From assembly GCF_988242995.1 (NCBI RefSeq), contig NZ_OZ547043.1: DNA of 64,000 bases. One strand, written 5' to 3'. The notes beneath the pieces were generated by a model, which did not search any database, was not told the DNA's origin, and saw only the letters and a list, made by a program, of their open reading frames with translations. Within the stretch, counting starts at the first letter, position 1. Every line of letters begins with the position of its first letter. Below are positions 9,524-61,826 of this stretch, piece by piece. The translations under genes and the position numbers were made by a program.

Positions 9524-9556
9524 AATAATGGCGTTGACATCTTCAACGCCATTATT
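9524..9556. terminator. 14-bp perfect inverted repeat between convergent eaeH and ykgA; likely bidirectional terminator
   Basis: aataatggcgttga-catct-tcaacgccattatt, T-rich on both flanks. Confidence 0.45.
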
Positions 9557-10716: not shown

Positions 10717-11586
10717 GTGGAATTTTCCGTATTAAGTAACAATCTGAAAATGCCGATGATGGGATTTGGTGTTTTTCAGGTTACCGATAAAAACGTGTGC
10801 AAACAGTCAGTGTTGAACGCTATCCGCACGGGTTATCGACTCATCGACACTGCAGCGGTATACGGTAATGAAGATGCCGTCGGTGAAGCCGTTCGTGAAG
10901 CTATATCTGAAGGTTTATGTACCCGAGATGAGTTATTTATAACGTCTAAATTGTGGGTGCAGGATATGTTGAATCAGGATACGGCAAAAGCAGGTATTGA
11001 AGCGTCATTAAAAAAATCGGAACTAGAATACTTCGACCTCTATTTATTGCACCAGGCTATGCGCGATTATTTCAGTGCGTGGCGTGCACTCGAAGATGCC
11101 TATGAAGAGGGCAAATTAAAAGCAATTGGGGTTTCCAATTTCTATCCTCATGTTCTGGCGAACTTTTGTGAAACGGTAAGAGTTAAACCGATGGTCAACC
11201 AGGTCGAGTTGCATCCCTATTTTGCCCAACCAGAGGCGCTGGCAACCATGAAGTATTATAACGTGCAGCCTGAAGCATGGGCTCCGTTAGGTGGTGGACG
11301 ACATAAACCCTTTGAAAATAATCTGCTTCAGAGTATTGCAGATGCCCATCAAAAATCGATTTCTCAGGTCATTCTGCGTTGGAATATTCAACGGGGAGTG
11401 GTCGTTATTCCGAAATCGACACATCAACAGCGTATCGAAGAAAATTTTGCTATCTGGGATTTCTCACTGACAGAGAAAGAAATGGCACAAATTAGCTCGC
11501 TTGATTTGGGTTATGTTGGGGAGTCGGTAAAACATTTTAATCCTGAATTTGTTCGTGGTTGTCTTGCTGTAAAAATACATGATTGA
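10717..11586 (+). CDS. aldo-keto reductase (DkgA-like)
   Basis: ORF 10702..11586; GGAGGG at 10704-10709 then in-frame GTG at 10717; MPMMGFGVFQ...[14 protein letters not shown]...IGVSNF motifs. Confidence 0.7.
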   Translation: MEFSVLSNNLKMPMMGFGVFQVTDKNVCKQSVLNAIRTGYRLIDTAAVYGNEDAVGEAVREAISEGLCTRDELFITSKLWVQDMLNQDTAKAGIEASLKKSELEYFDLYLLHQAMRDYFSAWRALEDAYEEGKLKAIGVSNFYPHVLANFCETVRVKPMVNQVELHPYFAQPEALATMKYYNVQPEAWAPLGGGRHKPFENNLLQSIADAHQKSISQVILRWNIQRGVVVIPKSTHQQRIEENFAIWDFSLTEKEMAQISSLDLGYVGESVKHFNPEFVRGCLAVKIHD

Positions 11587-11745
11587 TATTAATCATGTAT
11601 TTTACCTGAGACGACAAGAATCTTTTAACAGGGGAGTGATATTGATCTTCACTCTGTCATGTCTCCGGTAATATGGCGTCAGGCTTCATCATCAGAAAGG
11701 GGGCCTGACGCCTGCAAAAGTGAACAACAGACAGTGTTCGGATTA

Positions 11746-18474: not shown

Positions 18475-18716
18475 GAGAGATATGAAGTCTGGACATAAAC
18501 CTGAAGGCGGTGTACGAGGTTGTGAATAGCGTTAAGGACAACCTGACTTAACCCCGTTCCGTCATGGTTATGCTCCTCTTCTGTAAATATCCTGGCATTA
18601 CTAATGCCAGGATATTTAAAGTGAAAAAGACAGGCATCCATTCCTGAAAACGGGTTCCCTTCCCGGTCATTGTCACTATAGTTTTATACAGGCACTCTCT
18701 GTCAGAATGCTGTTTA

Positions 18717-21163: not shown

Positions 21164-22636
21164 TTAGAATATGGACTGGAATTTAGCCATCTCAACCTGG
21201 ATGGACTTCACCTGGGTGTAACTCTGGAGCGTCATCACGCCGTTCTCGCGACCAATGCCGGAGTGTTTGTAGCCGCCAACGGGCATCTCAGCAGGGGATT
21301 CGCCCCAGGTGTTGATCCAGCAAATACCCGCTTCCAGCTGATGAATGACGCGATGCGCGCGGTTCAGGTCCGCCGTCACGATGCCCGCCGCCAGGCCGTA
21401 GTCGGTATCATTGGCGCGGCGAATCACTTCGTCCTCAGATTCATAAGTGAGAAGCGACATCACCGGACCGAAGATCTCTTCGCGCACGATGGTCATTTCG
21501 TCGCGGCAATCGGTGAACACGGTCGGTGCAACCCATGCGCCGTTATCGAAGCCATCGCCTTTCAGTACATCGCCGCCGCACAGTACGCGCGCGCCTTCCT
21601 CTTTGCCTTTGGCGATGTAACGCAGCACGTTATCGCGATGCGGGAAGCTGACCAGCGGGCCAAAGTTAGTTTGCGGATCGAAAACGTCGCCCGCGCGAAT
21701 GCGCTCAACGCGCGCCAGAATCTTTTGTTCAAATGCGGCTTTGCATTTCGCCGGAACGAAGACGCGGGTGCCGTTGGTACACACCTGACCGGAGCTGAAG
21801 AAGTTCGCCATCATGGCGATATCAGCGGCGAGATCGAGATCTGCATCGTCGAAAACGATCAGCGGCGATTTACCGCCCAGCTCCATGGTCACTTCTTTCA
21901 GGGAGGAAGCTGCCGAGTTAGCCATCACTTTTTTGCCGCTGGCGACACCGCCGGTAAATGACACTTTGGCAATGCCCGGATGATCGGTCAGATATTGCCC
22001 GGTCTCCGCGCCCACGCCCGGCAACACGTTAAATACACCGTCCGGCAGGCCCGCTTCGCTGTAAATTTCAGCCAGCTTTAACGCGGTAAGCGGGGTGACT
22101 TCGCTCGGTTTGAAGATCATTGCATTGCCTGCCGCCAGCGCCGGGGCGGATTTCCACAGGGCAATCTGGATCGGGTAGTTCCATGCGCCAATCCCTGCCA
22201 CTACGCCCAGCGGTTCGCGGCGGGTATAGACAAATGACGTCTCACGCAATGGGATCTGGCTGCCTTCCAGCGACGGGATCAGCCCGGCGTAGTACTCGAG
22301 CACGTCCGCGCCGGTAACGATATCGACGGTTGAGGTTTCCGAATACGCTTTTCCGGTGTCGAGGGTTTCCAGTTTTGCGAGTTCGTTATTGCGTTCACGC
22401 AGAATATCAACGGCCCGACGCAGAATACGCGAGCGTTCCATAGCGGTCATCGCCGCCCAGATTTTTTGCCCCTGTTGGGCACTCTTCACGGCGCGATCGA
22501 CATCCTCACGCCCGGCGGCCTGCACGGTCGCCAGCACGTTACCGTTGGCCGGGTTAATGGTCTCGAAGGTGCGACCGCTGGTGGCGGAGGTATAACCACC
22601 ATGTATATAAAGCTGCTGTTCTGCCATTCGGGACAT
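21164..22636 (-). CDS. betB: betaine aldehyde dehydrogenase
   Basis: ORF 21164..22639; [15 protein letters not shown]...; aldehyde dehydrogenase family. Confidence 0.9.
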
Positions 22637-22649
22637 CACGTCTCCTCGG

Positions 22650-23237
22650 TTAATCGGTGGGTAAATGCTGAGTAATAAAGTGACGGGTCAGCGAGTGTGC
22701 GAGAGGTTTATCCAGCGGTTTGCCGCTCAGTGCCGCGCGCAGCCATAATCCGTCAATCAGCGCGGCAAGGCCGTAGCCCGCTTCCTGTGCCTGTTGGCGC
22801 GGTAACTCGCGGTGAAATTCGCTCACCAGATTCGACAACAAGCGGCGGCTGCTCACCTGCTGCAAACGGTAAAGCATCGGCTGATGCATACTGCTGGCCC
22901 AAAACGCCAACCAGGCTTTCATCGCAGCATTACTGACCTGCGATTCATCGAAATTCCCGTCAACAATCGCCTGTAATCGCTGCTCTGCACTGCCCTGCGG
23001 AAGAGCATGTAATCGATTCAAAACCGCGTCACGCAGCTGACTGGTGATATCGCGCATGGTTGCTTCCAGCAGACCATTTTTGTCCCTGAAATAGTGGCTG
23101 ATGATCCCCGTAGAAACGCCTGCACGGCGGGCGATCTGCGCGATCGTTGCATCGTGCATGCCCACTTCATTTATTGCTTCCAGCGTGGCGTCGATCAGTT
23201 GTCTGCGCCGGATCGACTGCATCCCCAATTTGGGCAT
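22650..23237 (-). CDS. betI: TetR-family repressor of bet genes
   Basis: ORF 22650..23255; start set to [22 protein letters not shown]; TetR HTH ([21 protein letters not shown]). Confidence 0.9.
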
Positions 23238-25412: not shown

Positions 25413-25449
25413 AAACCGCGCCATGTCTGCATATGGCGCGGTTTCTCTT
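25413..25449 (+). terminator. rho-independent terminator downstream of betT
   Basis: aaaccgcgccat-(8 nt loop)-atggcgcggttt followed by tctctt. Confidence 0.45.
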
Positions 25450-55666: not shown

Positions 55667-55690
55667 AGCCACTGACCTGTGTCAGTGGCT
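55667..55690. terminator. 10-bp stem hairpin between convergent codA and cynR
   Basis: agccactgac-ctgt-gtcagtggct. Confidence 0.4.
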
Positions 55691-56588
55691 ACCGTGATTC
55701 ATTCCCGCCAACAACCGCGCATTCCTCCAACGCCATGTGCAAAAATGCCTTCGCGGCGGCTGTCTGCCAGCTATTTTTCCGCCGCAATAAAACCGCCGTT
55801 CTCTCCAGTAACGGTGGGGCAAGGGATATAGCTTTAAGCCCGTCATGTTGTGTGGCAATCGCTGCTGGCAACAATGTGGAAAGGGAAGTGCGGCGAATCA
55901 GCTCCAGAACCGCGCTAATTGAGTTCGCCTCAATGACCACCTGTGGATGTAGCCCCGCTTTCTCGCAGTAGTGGTCAATTTGCTCTCTGGTGGCAAATTC
56001 CGCGCTGAGCAGGACCAGTTTTTCATCATGCAAGCGACTCAACGCCACCTGTTCACAGGCAGCCAGCGGATGATGTTGCGCCACGACTAACGCTAAACTT
56101 TCTGTCAGTAAAGGAATTGCCTCCAGCTCCGGCGAATGCACAGGCGCGAAGGCAATCCCAACGTCCAACTCGTCGCGACAAAGCAGATCTTCGATTTTCT
56201 CCTGCGACATTTCCTGTAGCTGGAGCGTGATGCCGGGGTAGCGCGCATAGAAATCCGCCATTAAAGGGCCGATAAAGTAGCTTGTAAAGGTGGGAGTGAC
56301 GGCGATACGCAGCGATCCTCGCGTCAGATCGGCAACATCATGAATCGCCCGTTTACCCGCCCCCAGTTCCTGTAACGCCCGGCTGGCGTACTGTCGCCAG
56401 ACTTCTCCTGCATCAGTGAGACGAATCGTTCGCCCGCTACGGTCAAACAGCGGCACGCCTAAACTCTCCTCTAACTGGCGAATCTGCTGGGAAAGCGCAG
56501 GCTGGGAGACGTGCAACGCACTGGCGGCACGGGTAAAGCTGCCATGTTCAGCCACGGCAAGAAAATAATTGATATGTCGAGAGAGCAT
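55689..56588 (-). CDS. cynR: LysR-family activator of the cyn operon
   Basis: ORF 55689..56612; start set to [22 protein letters not shown] (299 aa). Confidence 0.9.
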
Positions 56589-56697: not shown

Positions 56698-57357
56698 GTG
56701 AAAGAGATTATTGATGGATTCCTTAAATTCCAGCGCGAGGCATTTCCGAAGCGGGAAGCCTTGTTTAAACAGCTGGCGACACAGCAAAGCCCGCGCACAC
56801 TTTTTATCTCCTGCTCCGACAGCCGTCTGGTCCCTGAGCTGGTGACGCAACGTGAGCCTGGCGATCTGTTCGTTATTCGCAACGCGGGCAATATTGTCCC
56901 TTCCTACGGGCCGGAACCCGGTGGCGTTTCTGCTTCGGTGGAGTATGCCGTCGCTGCGCTTCGGGTATCTGACATTGTGATTTGCGGTCATTCCAACTGT
57001 GGCGCGATGACCGCCATTGCCAGCTGTCAGTGCATGGACCATATGCCTGCCGTCTCCCACTGGCTGCGTTATGCCGATTCAGCCCGCGTCGTTAATGAGG
57101 CGCGCCCGCATCCCGATTTACCGTCAAAAGCTGCGGCGATGGTACGTGAAAACGTCATTGCTCAGTTGGCTAATTTGCAAACTCATCCATCGGTGCGCCT
57201 GGCGCTCGAAGAGGGGCGGATCGCCCTGCACGGCTGGGTCTACGACATTGAAAGCGGCAGCATCGCAGCTTTTGACGGCGCAACCCGCCAGTTTGTGCCA
57301 CTGGCAGCTAATCCTCGCGTTTGTGCCATACCGCTACGCCAACCGACCGCAGCGTAA
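56698..57357 (+). CDS. cynT: beta-class carbonic anhydrase
   Basis: 219 aa; CSDSR and HSNCGA zinc-ligand motifs. Confidence 0.9.
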
Positions 57358-57369
57358 CCTTATTTTTAA

Positions 57370-57858
<489 letters not shown>

Positions 57859-58181
57859 CAGCCATGCGCAACCATCAAAAGACGTTCACGATGCTGCTGG
57901 TTCTGGTGCTGATTGGTCTTAATATGCGACCACTGCTCACCTCCGTCGGGCCACTGCTACCGCAATTGCGCCAGGCAAGCGGAATGAGCTTTAGCGTGGC
58001 TGCCCTGTTGACCGCTCTGCCGGTGGTTACCATGGGCGGGCTGGCGCTGGCCGGAAGCTGGCTTCATCAGCATGTCAGCGAACGTCGCAGCGTCGCCATC
58101 AGTTTGTTACTGATTGCCGTCGGTGCATTGATGCGTGAGCTTTACCCCCAAAGTGCGCTGCTGCTTAGCAGCGCACTGCTT

Positions 58182-58893
58182 GTGCACAGAAAACCCCCAG
58201 CTAGGCTGGGGGTTCCGGAAAGCTTTCAGCTTTGAGCCAGTTATTAAAACCCCTTTTGATTTGTTAAAACACCTTGCGGTCTGGCAACTGCAAGTGTCAA
58301 ACAAGAAATCAAAAGGGGGTCCCAATGGGGAACGAAAAGAGCTTAGCGCACACCCGATGGAACTGTAAATATCACATAGTTTTTGCGCCAAAATACCGAA
58401 GACAGGTGTTCTACAGAGAGAAGCGTAGAGCAATAGGCAGTATTTTGAGAAAGCTGTGTGAGTGGAAAAGCGTACGGATTCTGGAAGCTGAATGCTGTGC
58501 AGATCATATCCATATGCTTGTGGAGATCCCGCCCAAAATGAGCGTATCCGGGTTTATGGGATATCTGAAAGGGAAAAGCAGTCTGATGCTTTACGAGCAG
58601 TTTGGTGATTTGAAATTCAAATACAGGAACAGGGAGTTCTGGTGCAGAGGGTACTACGTCGATACAGTGGGTAAGAACACGGCGAAGATACAGGATTACA
58701 TAAAGCACCAGCTTGAAGAGGATAAAATGGGAGAGCAGTTATCGATTCCCTATCCGGGCAGCCCGTTTACGGGCCGTAAGTAACGAAGTTGGATGCAAAT
58801 GTCAGATCGTGTGCGCCTGTTAGGGCGCGGCTGGTAAGAGAGCCTTATAGGCGCATTTGAAAAACCTCCGGCTATGCCGGAGGATATTTATTT
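58182..58893 (+). mobile_element. IS200 (IS200/IS605 family) insertion element, ~712 bp
   Basis: Carries a 152-aa tnpA, left-end hairpin aaacccccagctaggctgggggtt and right-end hairpin cctccggctatgccggagg; precisely interrupts cynX with no evident target duplication. Confidence 0.85.
58325..58783 (+). CDS. tnpA: IS200 transposase TnpA (HUH Y1 transposase)
   Basis: ORF 58274..58783; MGNEKSLAHTRWNCKYHIVFAPKYRRQVFY...HIHMLVEIPPK (HuH motif)...YYVDTVG (catalytic Tyr region); matches recalled Salmonella IS200 TnpA. Confidence 0.9.
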   Translation: MGNEKSLAHTRWNCKYHIVFAPKYRRQVFYREKRRAIGSILRKLCEWKSVRILEAECCADHIHMLVEIPPKMSVSGFMGYLKGKSSLMLYEQFGDLKFKYRNREFWCRGYYVDTVGKNTAKIQDYIKHQLEEDKMGEQLSIPYPGSPFTGRK

Positions 58894-59771
58894 GGTGGAG
58901 TGGGGATCGGCATCATTCAGGCAGTGATGCCTTCGGTAATTAAGCGGCGGTTTCAGCACCGTACGCCACTGGTGATGGGGCTGTGGTCCGCGGCTCTGAT
59001 GGGCGGCGGTGGACTTGGTGCCGCCATTACGCCCTGGTTAGTTCAACATAGCGAAACCTGGTATCAAACACTCGCCTGGTGGGCGCTGCCTGCCGTTGTT
59101 GCGCTCTTTGCCTGGTGGTGGCAAAGCGCCCGCGAGGTCGCCTCTTCTCACAAGACAACAACCACTCCGGTTCGCGTGGTATTTACTCCCCGCGCGTGGA
59201 CGCTGGGTGTTTACTTCGGTCTGATTAACGGTGGTTACGCCAGCCTGATTGCCTGGTTACCCGCTTTCTATATTGAGATTGGTGCCAGCGCGCAGTACAG
59301 CGGTTCCTTGCTGGCATTGATGACGCTTGGGCAAGCAGCAGGGGCATTGCTGATGCCTGCTATGGCTCGCCATCAGGATCGGCGCAAACTTTTGATGCTG
59401 GCGCTGGCGTTACAACTGGTGGGGTTCTGCGGCTTTATCTGGCTGCCGCTGCAATTGCCGGTATTGTGGGCAATGGTGTGTGGGTTAGGTCTGGGCGGCG
59501 CATTTCCGCTCTGTTTGCTGCTGGCGCTCGATCACTCTGCGCAACCCGCTATTGCTGGCAAACTGGTGGCGTTTATGCAGGGGATCGGTTTTATCATCGC
59601 CGGGCTTGCCCCGTGGTTTTCTGGTGTGCTGCGTAGTATCAGTGGCAATTACTTGATGGACTGGGCGTTTCATGCGCTGTGCGTCGTTGGGCTGATGATC
59701 ATAACCCTGCGTTTTGCACCAGCACGTTTTCCGCAGCTGTGGGTCAAAGAGGCATGATGCGACGCTTGTTT

Positions 59772-59827
59772 CGCCAGATAATGGAAGAGTGAATTATTGT
59801 CGGATGTGCCCAATGGCGCATCCGACA
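59772..59827. repeat. copy of the prpE 3'-end/REP junction followed by a REP-like palindrome, downstream of cynX
   Basis: cgccagataatggaagagtgaattattgtcggatg (vs 52859-52893, 4 mismatches in 35) then tgtcggatgtgcccaatggcgcatccgaca. Confidence 0.5.
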
Positions 59828-59844
59828 TTTATTTCAGTGCTTAT

Positions 59845-60456
59845 TTAAACTGAAGGTTCAACTTTATAATCTTTGTAATAATAGTGCTTATCCCGGTCGT
59901 TTATTTCGCGAATAACCCGGCAAGGAACGCCAGCAGCCACGACGTTTGGTGGAATGTCTTTTATGACGACACTACCCGCGCCAATAACAGAATTATCCCC
60001 GATGGTGACGCCTGGATTAATGACCACATGACTTCCGATCCAGACGTTATTGCCAATCGTTATCGGAAAAGAGTACATCTCACCGTTTTTTCTCAATTCA
60101 TGGTGTACAGGGTGTCCCGTAACGGAAAGAGTAACATTGGGAGCAATCAGTACGTTATCACCGATTGTTACCGTGTAGTCATCGACAATGGTTAAATTAA
60201 AATTTGCATAAAAATTGCGGCCTATATGGATGTTGGAACCGTAAGAGAAATAGACGGGTGGTTCTACCCAGGCGTTTTCCCCTACCGTGGCAAACATTTC
60301 TTTAATCAGGCTTTCTCTTTTTTCAACTTCTGATGGATGCGAGTGATTAAACTCATACATTAACGTTTTCCCACGAAGTCTTTTTTCCGGTAAGCCTTCG
60401 CACATATCGGTAAATAGCTTGCCTGCTTTTATTCTTTCGGTCATCGACATGTTCAT
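59845..60456 (-). CDS. lacA: galactoside O-acetyltransferase (hexapeptide-repeat)
   Basis: ORF 59845..60507; start set to MNMSMTERIKAGKLF (203 aa). Confidence 0.9.
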   Translation of the reverse strand: MNMSMTERIKAGKLFTDMCEGLPEKRLRGKTLMYEFNHSHPSEVEKRESLIKEMFATVGENAWVEPPVYFSYGSNIHIGRNFYANFNLTIVDDYTVTIGDNVLIAPNVTLSVTGHPVHHELRKNGEMYSFPITIGNNVWIGSHVVINPGVTIGDNSVIGAGSVVIKDIPPNVVAAGVPCRVIREINDRDKHYYYKDYKVEPSV

Positions 60457-60521: not shown

Positions 60522-61820
<1,299 letters not shown>

Positions 61821-61826
61821 TTATTA

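What the first reader, a model, noticed from the sequence alone, without database searches (positions are those of the whole stretch)
57891..59757. IS200 insertion splits the cyanate transporter gene cynX
A 712-bp IS200 element with a recognisable 152-aa TnpA and terminal hairpins is inserted after the codon for Leu in ...SSALL of CynX; the CynX reading frame resumes exactly after the element, so the insertion is precise and lacks a target duplication. cynT and cynS upstream are intact but the permease is inactivated, and the left-end hairpin of IS200 could terminate read-through. IS200 is best known from Salmonella and is sporadic in E. coli.
Basis: partly seen in the sequence, partly recalled or inferred. 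Interest (0 to 1): 0.6.

Follow-up and report, generated by a model that had tools for sequence, protein, structure and literature searches.

The report
IS200C insertion splitting cynX
A well-known small mobile element (IS200C) has jumped into the last gene of the E. coli cyanate operon and broken it; this is an ordinary gene knock-out, and the only mildly instructive point is that it landed right after a DNA hairpin, which is where this element almost always lands.

Summary
Window 58182-58893 is a 712-bp IS200C, 100% identical to copies in many E. coli genomes. It has an intact 152-aa Y1/HUH TnpA, the IS200 left-end hairpin and 5'UTR (Rfam STnc490), and a right-end hairpin. Deleting these 712 bp restores a 1155-bp cynX identical to an intact reference allele, with no target duplication. 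cynT, cynS and lacA are intact.

The element is already known and common: 2063 of 5426 complete E. coli genomes carry a near-full-length copy, so "sporadic" understates it. This insertion site is private. None of the 5426 genomes has the junction.

The polarity idea carries little weight, because cynX is the last gene of the operon.

The new point is that the site is not random. The IS sits 4 nt after a perfect 11-bp-stem hairpin inside the cynX coding sequence, after "TT". Across 120 IS200-group copies from many bacteria, the left flank is almost always a terminator-like hairpin followed by a T-rich tail ending in TT. Three other intragenic E. coli insertions show the same geometry. The orientation places the element's top strand on the lagging-strand template, as expected for this family.

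Verdict: real, ordinary, low interest.

The parts
55689..56588 (-). cynR (LysR-type activator), intact 299-aa ORF
   Evidence: 299 aa, two substitutions relative to the NZ_CP062824 CynR.
56698..57357 (+). cynT carbonic anhydrase, intact
   Evidence: 219 aa, identical to WP_000658642.1 as annotated in L002.
57388..57858 (+). cynS cyanase, intact
   Evidence: 156 aa, identical to the L002 protein.
57891..58181 (+). cynX 5' fragment (codons 1-97). Translation runs on into the IS for 17 more codons and stops at 58233-58235.
   Evidence: the product would be 97 native residues plus VHRKPPARLGVPESFQL.
58152..58177 (+). Perfect palindrome inside the cynX coding sequence: AGTGCGCTGCT-GCTT-AGCAGCGCACT (11-bp stem, 4-nt loop). 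The tail GCTT (58178-58181) follows it, and the IS starts at 58182. Proposed target structure.
   Evidence: MFE of the last 40 nt is -20.6 kcal/mol. It is the only perfect hairpin with a stem of 9 bp or more in cynX, and one of 9 non-IS ones in the 64-kb window.
58182..58893 (+). IS200C, complete, 712 bp
   Evidence: 100% identity over 712 bp to many E. coli copies annotated as IS200C; its removal restores cynX exactly.
58192..58214 (+). IS200 left-end hairpin AACCCCCAGC-TAG-GCTGGGGGTT. It corresponds to the published 'terminator' at nt 12-34 of IS200.
   Evidence: anatomy from PMC4513863.
58192..58315 (+). [quoted passage not shown]
   Evidence: 146.4 bits (gathering threshold 56), E = 2.5e-31, full-length model match. 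PMC4513863 places the art200 sRNA antisense to this stretch.
58325..58783 (+). tnpA, Y1 HUH transposase, 152 aa, intact (HUH = H61-I-H63; catalytic Tyr125 in DYIKHQ)
   Evidence: NF033573, 147.7 bits against a cut-off of 55. PDB homologues 2ec2, 2f5g, 2a6m (IS608 TnpA) at E = 4e-23 to 4e-19, with HUH and Tyr aligned; residue positions.
58865..58883 (+). IS200 right-end hairpin CCTCCGGC-TAT-GCCGGAGG, followed by ATATTTATTT up to the element end at 58893. Terminator-like on both strands.
58894..59757 (+). cynX 3' fragment (codons 98-384 plus stop), in frame with the 5' fragment once the IS is removed
59798..59827 (+). cynX/lacA intergenic terminator hairpin, followed by TTTATT. It is empty in the window. 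An identical IS200C occupies it in strain Ec-U4-19.
59845..60456 (-). lacA, intact, convergent with cynX
   Evidence: 203 aa, identical to the L002 LacA.

Best explanation
A complete and probably transposition-competent IS200C inserted into codon boundary 97/98 of cynX. IS200C belongs to the IS200/IS605 family, IS200 group, and carries only tnpA. The insertion followed the family's single-strand 'peel and paste' route.

In that route the Y1 HUH transposase integrates the circular top strand into single-stranded target DNA on the lagging-strand template. No bases are gained or lost.

The site was chosen because the cynX coding strand contains a perfect 11-bp-stem hairpin followed by GCTT. This mimics the element's usual target, which is a terminator-like hairpin with a short T-rich tail ending in TT.

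The result is a null cynX allele: 97 native residues plus 17 IS-encoded ones, roughly the first quarter of the 384-residue transporter. cynT, cynS, cynR and lacA are untouched.

The event is private to this strain or lineage and most likely neutral.

Shown: the element's identity, exact boundaries, absence of duplication, intact tnpA, the hairpin geometry, the flank statistics, the orientation relative to GC skew, and the absence of this junction elsewhere.

Inferred: that TnpA recognises the hairpin-plus-TT structure, that the insertion happened at a replication fork, and that CynX function is lost without much phenotype.
For: **Identity.** The block is 712/712 identical to annotated IS200C copies. 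TnpA matches NF033573 at 147.7 bits. The HUH motif and Tyr125 align with solved IS200/IS605 transposases. Rfam STnc490 matches at 146 bits.

**Precision.** Deleting the block gives a cynX with 0 differences from an intact allele.

**Target rule.**
- In 120 unique left flanks of IS200-group copies, T is found at -2 in 118, at -1 in 107 and at -5 in 115.
- 78 of 120 have a perfect stem of 6 bp or more ending within 14 nt, against 4.7% of 2000 random controls.
- The median fold energy of the last 40 nt is -18.2 kcal/mol, against -6.5 for controls.
- The commonest stem-to-insertion gap is 6 nt.
- Tandem copies use another copy's right-end hairpin plus TTATT as their target.

**The cynX site.** It has an 11-bp stem and a 4-nt gap, ends in TT, and folds at -20.6 kcal/mol. 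It is the only such hairpin in cynX.

**Other E. coli sites.** Two further insertions in the cyn-lac region lie after hairpin + TTATT, in the same orientation: cynX-lacA (L001) and lacY-lacZ (L003). Three other intragenic insertions (gtdA, dgcN, an AtuA-like gene) also lie after a hairpin plus a tail ending in TT.

**Orientation.** GC skew is positive over the window, so the + strand, which is the IS top strand, is the lagging-strand template. 77 of 90 IS200-group loci show the same relation, p = 3e-12. This matches the family rule in PMC5027513.

**Private event.** 0 of 5426 complete E. coli genomes have the junction.
Against: - The tail here (GCTT) is poorer in T than the typical TTTTTT. G at -4 and C at -3 are minority states (6 and 10 of 120).
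- The hairpin association in intergenic copies could partly reflect selection for harmless sites rather than targeting. Only four intragenic cases support the structure-based reading.
- The GC-skew test is confounded by gene orientation.
- No experiment here shows that IS200C TnpA binds target hairpins.
- The source genome is unknown, and I could not find a second assembly carrying the junction.
- No phenotype can be inferred, because CynX's role in cyanate transport is only putative.
Confidence: 0.88

Rival explanations
1. Assembly artefact: a repeated IS200C copy was wrongly placed in cynX by the assembler, and the real strain has an intact cynX.
For: IS200C is multicopy in many E. coli, with up to 35 places per genome. 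The junction is seen in no other complete genome. No second assembly with it was found.
Against: Both junctions are exact to the base and restore the ORF perfectly. The site has the element's characteristic hairpin + TT geometry and the expected orientation. A mis-join would not reproduce these features at both ends.
Confidence: 0.03
2. A real insertion at an essentially random site. Under this reading the adjacent palindrome is a coincidence, and the hairpin association of other copies only reflects purifying selection that keeps IS200 behind terminators.
For: Most of the 120 flanks are intergenic terminators, where insertions do no harm. The tail at cynX (GCTT) is atypical.
Against: cynX has only one perfect hairpin with a stem of 9 bp or more. 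About 7 of its 1155 positions lie 2-8 nt 3' of it. The fixed spacing and the near-invariant TT (118/120) argue for recognition rather than survival alone. Three other gene-disrupting insertions, which are not 'harmless' sites, show the same geometry. Tandem IS-into-IS insertions use the right-end hairpin.
Confidence: 0.08
3. Selected change: loss of CynX was favoured in this lineage. A variant of this reading is that the IS was favoured for what it adds between cynS and lacA, namely its terminators and its 5'tnpA and art200 sRNAs.
For: Other public assemblies carry independent frameshifts in cynX within about 25 bp of the same palindrome: a 1-bp deletion in the C5 run and an 8-bp deletion in the hairpin. 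This suggests cynX is dispensable or repeatedly lost. IS200-derived sRNAs have regulatory targets in Salmonella (PMC5435999 and PMC12594629, listed).
Against: There is a single occurrence among thousands of genomes and no sign of spread. The frameshift set is biased by how it was retrieved, since the look-up used the exact C-terminal ORF. No expression or fitness data exist.
Confidence: 0.04

Closest known systems
IS200C (IS200/IS605 family, IS200 group) of Escherichia coli
   Same: 100% nucleotide identity over all 712 bp. Same tnpA product as WP_000526135.1-bearing copies (identical DNA in L001). Same end hairpins.
   Different: Nothing in the element itself differs. Only the location (cynX codon 97/98) is not seen in any of 5426 complete genomes.
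Salmonella IS200 (for example hisD984::IS200) and Yersinia IS1541
   Same: Same architecture as published for IS200: left-end terminator hairpin at nt 12-34, SD-sequestering stem-loop, SD AAGGGGGU, catalytic Y125, antisense art200/STnc490 region (PMC4513863). The left-end hairpin sequence is identical in Y. pestis IS1541 copies. hisD984 is the classical example of an intragenic, polar IS200 insertion.
   Different: The Salmonella element is given as 707 bp, against 712 bp here. The sequence differs outside the conserved left end. I did not align them directly.
IS608 / ISDra2 (the mechanistic paradigms of the family)
   Same: Y1 HUH transposase homologous to the solved IS608 and ISDra2 TnpA. 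No terminal inverted repeats and no target duplication. Strand-specific insertion consistent with the lagging-strand template.
   Different: Those elements insert 3' of a fixed tetra- or pentanucleotide and carry tnpB (ISDra2 pentanucleotide: PMC2806898; the specific motifs TTAC and TTGAT are from my own knowledge). IS200C has no tnpB. Its flanks show a hairpin plus a T-rich tail ending in TT rather than a fixed 4-5-mer.
Mobile elements that target hairpins or terminators: group IIC introns, and the insertion sequences reported to target REP sequences
   Same: Insertion next to a stem-loop such as a Rho-independent terminator (group IIC introns: PMC7923331). REPs are described as specific target sites for several insertion sequences (PMC3333891).
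   Different: Unrelated enzymes and chemistry. The resemblance lies only in the choice of a structured, usually harmless target.

Membership tests
IS200/IS605 family, IS200 group (IS200C) | Encodes a roughly 150-aa Y1 transposase with an HUH motif and a single catalytic tyrosine | tested here: met
   NF033573 at 147.7 bits against a cut-off of 55. H61-I-H63 and Y125 align with solved TnpA structures. Y125 is the catalytic residue in PMC4513863.
IS200/IS605 family, IS200 group (IS200C) | No terminal inverted repeats; subterminal hairpins at both ends | tested here: met
   The ends GTGCACAGAAAA… and …GGATATTTATTT are not inverted copies of each other (read directly). Hairpins lie at 58192-58214 and 58865-58883.
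IS200/IS605 family, IS200 group (IS200C) | Insertion without target-site duplication | tested here: met
   Removing exactly 712 bp restores the reference cynX with 0 differences.
IS200/IS605 family, IS200 group (IS200C) | tnpA only (no tnpB), about 0.7 kb | tested here: met
   712 bp. The only long ORF with a family match is tnpA.
IS200/IS605 family, IS200 group (IS200C) | IS200-type 5' leader: terminator hairpin plus SD-sequestering stem-loop, with the art200/STnc490 region | tested here: met
   Rfam RF01405 full-length match, 146.4 bits against a gathering score of 56.
IS200/IS605 family, IS200 group (IS200C) | Sequence identity to the curated IS200C reference in ISfinder | not testable with these tools
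   ISfinder is not available. As a proxy, the DNA is 100% identical to elements that RefSeq/PGAP names 'IS200C family'.
IS200/IS605 family, IS200 group (IS200C) | Top strand lies on the lagging-strand template | tested here: met
   GC skew is positive on the + strand across the 64 kb. The gene order matches the K-12 6-8 min region; that this region lies in the right replichore is my own knowledge. 77 of 90 related loci show the same relation. The test is confounded by gene orientation.
IS200/IS605 family, IS200 group (IS200C) | Transposition through a single-stranded circular intermediate catalysed by TnpA | not testable with these tools
   Inferred from family membership (PMC5027513). Salmonella IS200 TnpA is active in E. 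coli (PMC4513863).
CynX (MFS, putative cyanate transporter) - interrupted gene | The reconstituted ORF equals an annotated full-length CynX and sits in cynR / cynTSX / lacA synteny | tested here: met
   1155/1155 identity to cynX of NZ_CP062824. Neighbours are as.
CynX (MFS, putative cyanate transporter) - interrupted gene | Transports cyanate | not testable with these tools
   It is described only as a putative transporter in E. coli. A distant Pseudomonas homologue was not needed for cyanate uptake (PMC6627978).

The most novel reading that the evidence does not exclude
IS200-group transposases may choose targets by structure rather than by a fixed 4-5-nt word. Any single-stranded hairpin followed by a short tail ending in TT would serve. 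That is normally an intrinsic terminator, which would also explain why the elements are so harmless and so poorly expressed. Rare gene knock-outs such as cynX, gtdA and dgcN would then be predictable from palindromes in coding DNA. I found no statement of this rule in the searchable literature, but older IS200 and IS1541 papers and the family review were not readable here, so it may already be described.
Probability: 0.3. Interest if true: 0.45.

Novelty: already known. Interest (0 to 1): 0.14.

Why it matters
For the window itself this is routine annotation. cynX should be marked as a pseudogene disrupted by IS200C, and the strain may be altered in cyanate handling.

Two minor points go beyond that.

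1. IS200 is regarded as nearly dormant (PMC4513863). A private insertion of a copy identical to the consensus suggests recent activity in E. coli.
2. The hairpin + TT geometry gives a simple, testable rule for where IS200 lands. The rule would help in annotating IS200 boundaries. It would also help in predicting which coding palindromes are at risk.

Tried and rejected
- **Exact-protein look-ups.** I searched for the truncated N-terminal product (123 and 114 aa) and the GTG-start C-terminal ORF to find the source genome or other carriers. Nothing was on record.
- **ATG-start C-terminal ORF (276 aa).** It retrieved 23 contigs, but the six places shown carry small frameshifts and no IS.
- **Literature.** A search for IS200 plus cynX gave 0 papers. 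Searches for a published IS200 or IS1541 terminator/hairpin target rule found nothing explicit. Odaert 1998, Beuzón 1997 and Siguier 2014 are not held. No PMC id was available for the He 2015 family review.
- **Another IS family or a degraded remnant.** Rejected on 100% identity to IS200C and an intact tnpA.
- **A polar effect on downstream genes.** Rejected as largely irrelevant, because nothing in the operon lies downstream of cynX and lacA is convergent.
- **A promoter reading out of the IS into the 3' cynX fragment.** The simple scan found no sigma-70-like site in 57800-60000. This is weak negative evidence only.
- **Identifying the source strain.** The best 25-kb matches are only 98.5-98.7% identical, so the genome is not in the complete-genome set.

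Full report
**1. What is there**

The stretch 55.6-61.8 kb of the window is the standard E. coli cynR / cynTSX / lacAYZ region. cynX begins at ATG 57891 and ends at 59757.

Between CTT (58179-58181, Leu97) and GGT (58894-58896) lies a 712-bp block, 58182-58893. Joining the two cynX pieces gives 1155 bp with no difference from cynX of E. coli O169:H41 strain Res13-Lact-PER13-34, annotated as cyanate transporter CynX.

No bases are duplicated or lost. The flank ends in TT and the element ends in TTT, so the boundary could be drawn 0-2 nt further left. A second, independent insertion of the identical element (L001) excludes a rightward shift.

CynT, CynS and LacA are identical in protein sequence to the reference strain. 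CynR differs by two residues.

**2. What the block is**

- It is 100% identical over its full length to elements that RefSeq annotates as 'IS200/IS605-like element IS200C' in many E. coli genomes. One of these, in strain Ec-U4-19, has 0 differences in 712 bp.
- Its only meaningful ORF (58325-58783, 152 aa) matches NCBIfam NF033573, the IS200/IS605 transposase, at 147.7 bits against a cut-off of 55.
- The protein is homologous to the solved Y1 transposases of Sulfolobus, IS608 and ISDra2 (E = 4e-23 to 1e-14). The HUH motif (H61-I-H63) and Tyr125 are aligned. Y125 is the catalytic residue used in the Salmonella IS200 work (PMC4513863).
- Positions 58192-58315 match Rfam RF01405 (STnc490) over the whole model at 146 bits.
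- The published IS200 anatomy maps directly onto the window. It comprises the terminator hairpin at nt 12-34, the SD-sequestering stem-loop at nt 69-138, and the SD AAGGGGGU.
- The right end carries a second hairpin (58865-58883) followed by ATATTTATTT. The consensus scan rates it terminator-like on both strands.
- On the + strand the left-end hairpin has a weak T tail and was not flagged.

**3. How common, and how unusual is the site**

IS200C-like DNA is present in 3099 of 5426 complete E. coli genomes. Near-full-length copies occur in 2063, with a median of 2 and a maximum of 35 places per genome. 'Sporadic' therefore undersells it.

The cynX insertion, in contrast, is private. No complete genome has IS200C within cynX, and none has the 80-nt left junction.

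The nearest relatives of the window are only about 98.5-98.7% identical over 25 kb. The source genome is therefore not in that collection. Exact-protein look-ups for the truncated products found nothing.

Two other IS200 insertions occur within 4 kb in other strains, both in the same orientation as here:
- one 76 bp downstream of cynX, just behind the cynX/lacA terminator hairpin (Ec-U4-19);
- one in the lacY-lacZ spacer, behind another hairpin (FFFEB2; strains 405 and 7/2 are inferred from their matching span only).

**4. Why here**

Immediately upstream of the insertion, the cynX coding strand reads AGTGCGCTGCT-GCTT-AGCAGCGCACT, then GCTT, then the IS. This is a perfect 11-bp stem with a 4-nt loop (58152-58177) followed by a 4-nt tail ending in TT.

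The whole 64-kb window holds only nine non-IS perfect hairpins with a stem of 9 bp or more and a loop of 3-8 nt. cynX holds only this one.

To see whether this is typical, I scanned one genome per bacterial species for the conserved left-end hairpin and compared 120 distinct left flanks. The copies came from Yersinia pestis IS1541, Vibrio, Brenneria, Pluralibacter and various MAGs.

| Measure | IS200-group left flanks | Random controls |
|---|---|---|
| T at position -2 | 118/120 | - |
| T at position -1 | 107/120 (the rest are variants whose first base I mis-registered) | - |
| T at position -5 | 115/120 | - |
| Perfect stem of 6 bp or more ending within 14 nt | 65% (78/120) | 4.7% of 2000 positions |
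| Median folding energy of the last 40 nt | -18.2 kcal/mol | -6.5 kcal/mol |
| Commonest stem-to-insertion gap | 6 nt | - |

Most of the flanks without a perfect stem still fold strongly through imperfect stems.

Tandem copies in Y. pestis have inserted behind the right-end hairpin of another copy. The element's own right end therefore looks like its target.

Three other gene-disrupting E. coli insertions turned up in the junction search: in gtdA, in dgcN and in an AtuA-like gene. Each lies behind a foldable stem and a tail ending in TT.

I conclude that IS200-group elements insert just 3' of a hairpin plus a T-rich tail, normally an intrinsic terminator, and that the cynX palindrome is a coding-sequence mimic of that target. 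The geometry and the statistics are shown. That TnpA reads the structure is inference. Selection for harmless sites may contribute to the intergenic cases.

**5. Orientation**

GC skew is positive on the + strand across the window. The gene order is that of the K-12 6-8 min region, which lies in the right replichore (my own knowledge of the K-12 map). The + strand, which carries the IS top strand, is therefore the lagging-strand template.

The family is reported to excise from and insert into that template (PMC5027513). Among 90 IS200-group loci with at least 3 kb of flank, 77 have positive skew on the IS top strand (p = 3e-12). This test is confounded by the co-orientation of genes with replication.

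**6. Consequences**

Translation from the cynX start would give 97 native residues plus 17 IS-encoded residues, then stop at 58233-58235. That is about a quarter of the 384-residue transporter, so the allele is almost certainly null.

cynX is the last gene of the operon and lacA converges on it. Termination inside the IS therefore has no downstream operon gene to silence. At most it would change antisense transcription into lacA; that is inference and was not tested.

CynX is only a putative cyanate transporter (PMC6627978), so a phenotype cannot be assumed.

**7. Comparison and novelty**

The element is a member of a thoroughly described family and is identical to a named IS. Every defining feature I could test is met (see the membership table). 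Only the ISfinder comparison and transposition itself could not be tested.

An IS disrupting a non-essential gene is routine. The residual interest has two parts:
- It is a private, hence probably recent, hop of an element regarded as nearly dormant (PMC4513863).
- It follows the hairpin + TT target geometry. I could not find this stated in the searchable literature, but the older papers and the family review were not readable here, so it may well be there.

**8. Verdict**

The finding is already known in kind and of low interest.

Noticed in passing
window 58145-58167 (compared with L129-L134): Other public assemblies carry cynX alleles split by small frameshifts within about 25 bp of the same palindrome. 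L130-L134 have a 1-bp deletion in the C5 run at about 58145, L129 has an 8-bp deletion (GCTGCTTA) inside the hairpin, and L134 has an extra 1-bp T deletion at about 58180. All share one SNP background. This could mean a mutational hot spot and/or a dispensable cynX. It could also be homopolymer sequencing error, and the retrieval method biases towards lesions upstream of the ATG at 58927.
   Followed up: partly
window 59798-59833 and 61795-61825; L001 4232-4943; L003 about 22114-22824: The cynX-lacA terminator and the lacY-lacZ spacer hairpin are empty in the window. Other E. coli strains have IS200 copies there (Ec-U4-19 at the first; FFFEB2 at the second, with strains 405 and 7/2 inferred from their matching span). 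Each lies after hairpin + TTATT, in the same orientation as the cynX copy. That makes three independent IS200 sites within 4 kb.
   Followed up: yes
L069, L070, L072, L116 (Yersinia pestis NCTC5923): These are head-to-tail tandem IS1541/IS200 copies. The second copy is inserted exactly behind the right-end hairpin + TATTTATT of the first, which shows that the element's own right end is a target.
   Followed up: partly
L004-L064 (MAGs labelled Oxalobacter, Bacillota, Mailhella, Peptococcaceae, Saccharibacteria, Elusimicrobiaceae, Desulfovibrio): The 23-nt IS200 left-end hairpin AACCCCCAGCTAGGCTGGGGGTT is exactly conserved in elements of very distant taxa. It often lies about 100 nt from a contig end, as expected for a repeat that breaks assemblies. 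This points to wide horizontal spread or strong constraint on this hairpin. I did not check whether the rest of these elements resembles IS200C.
   Followed up: no
window 58192-58315: Rfam's STnc490 model matches the + (tnpA-sense) strand and includes the left-end terminator hairpin. PMC4513863, however, describes STnc490/art200 as the RNA antisense to the tnpA 5'UTR. The strand of the Rfam hit should not be taken as the strand of the sRNA.
   Followed up: no
window 1-64000: The best full-length matches among 5426 complete E. coli genomes are only 98.5-98.7% identical over 25-kb pieces, yet cynX itself is 100% identical to an O169:H41 strain. The source appears to be a lineage not represented in the set, with a recombinant mosaic in this region.
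   Followed up: partly
window 18584-18618, 9524-9556, 11572-11603, 25413-25444: These are long perfect palindromes (stems of 12-16 bp) between genes of the ykgG-ykgH, fdeC and bet regions. They are probably bidirectional terminators or REP-like elements. All are unoccupied potential IS200 targets where the tail has TT.
   Followed up: no
L001 1-759 (Ec-U4-19): codA is annotated as a pseudogene with an internal stop in the strain that carries IS200C behind cynX. This is unrelated to the finding.
   Followed up: no
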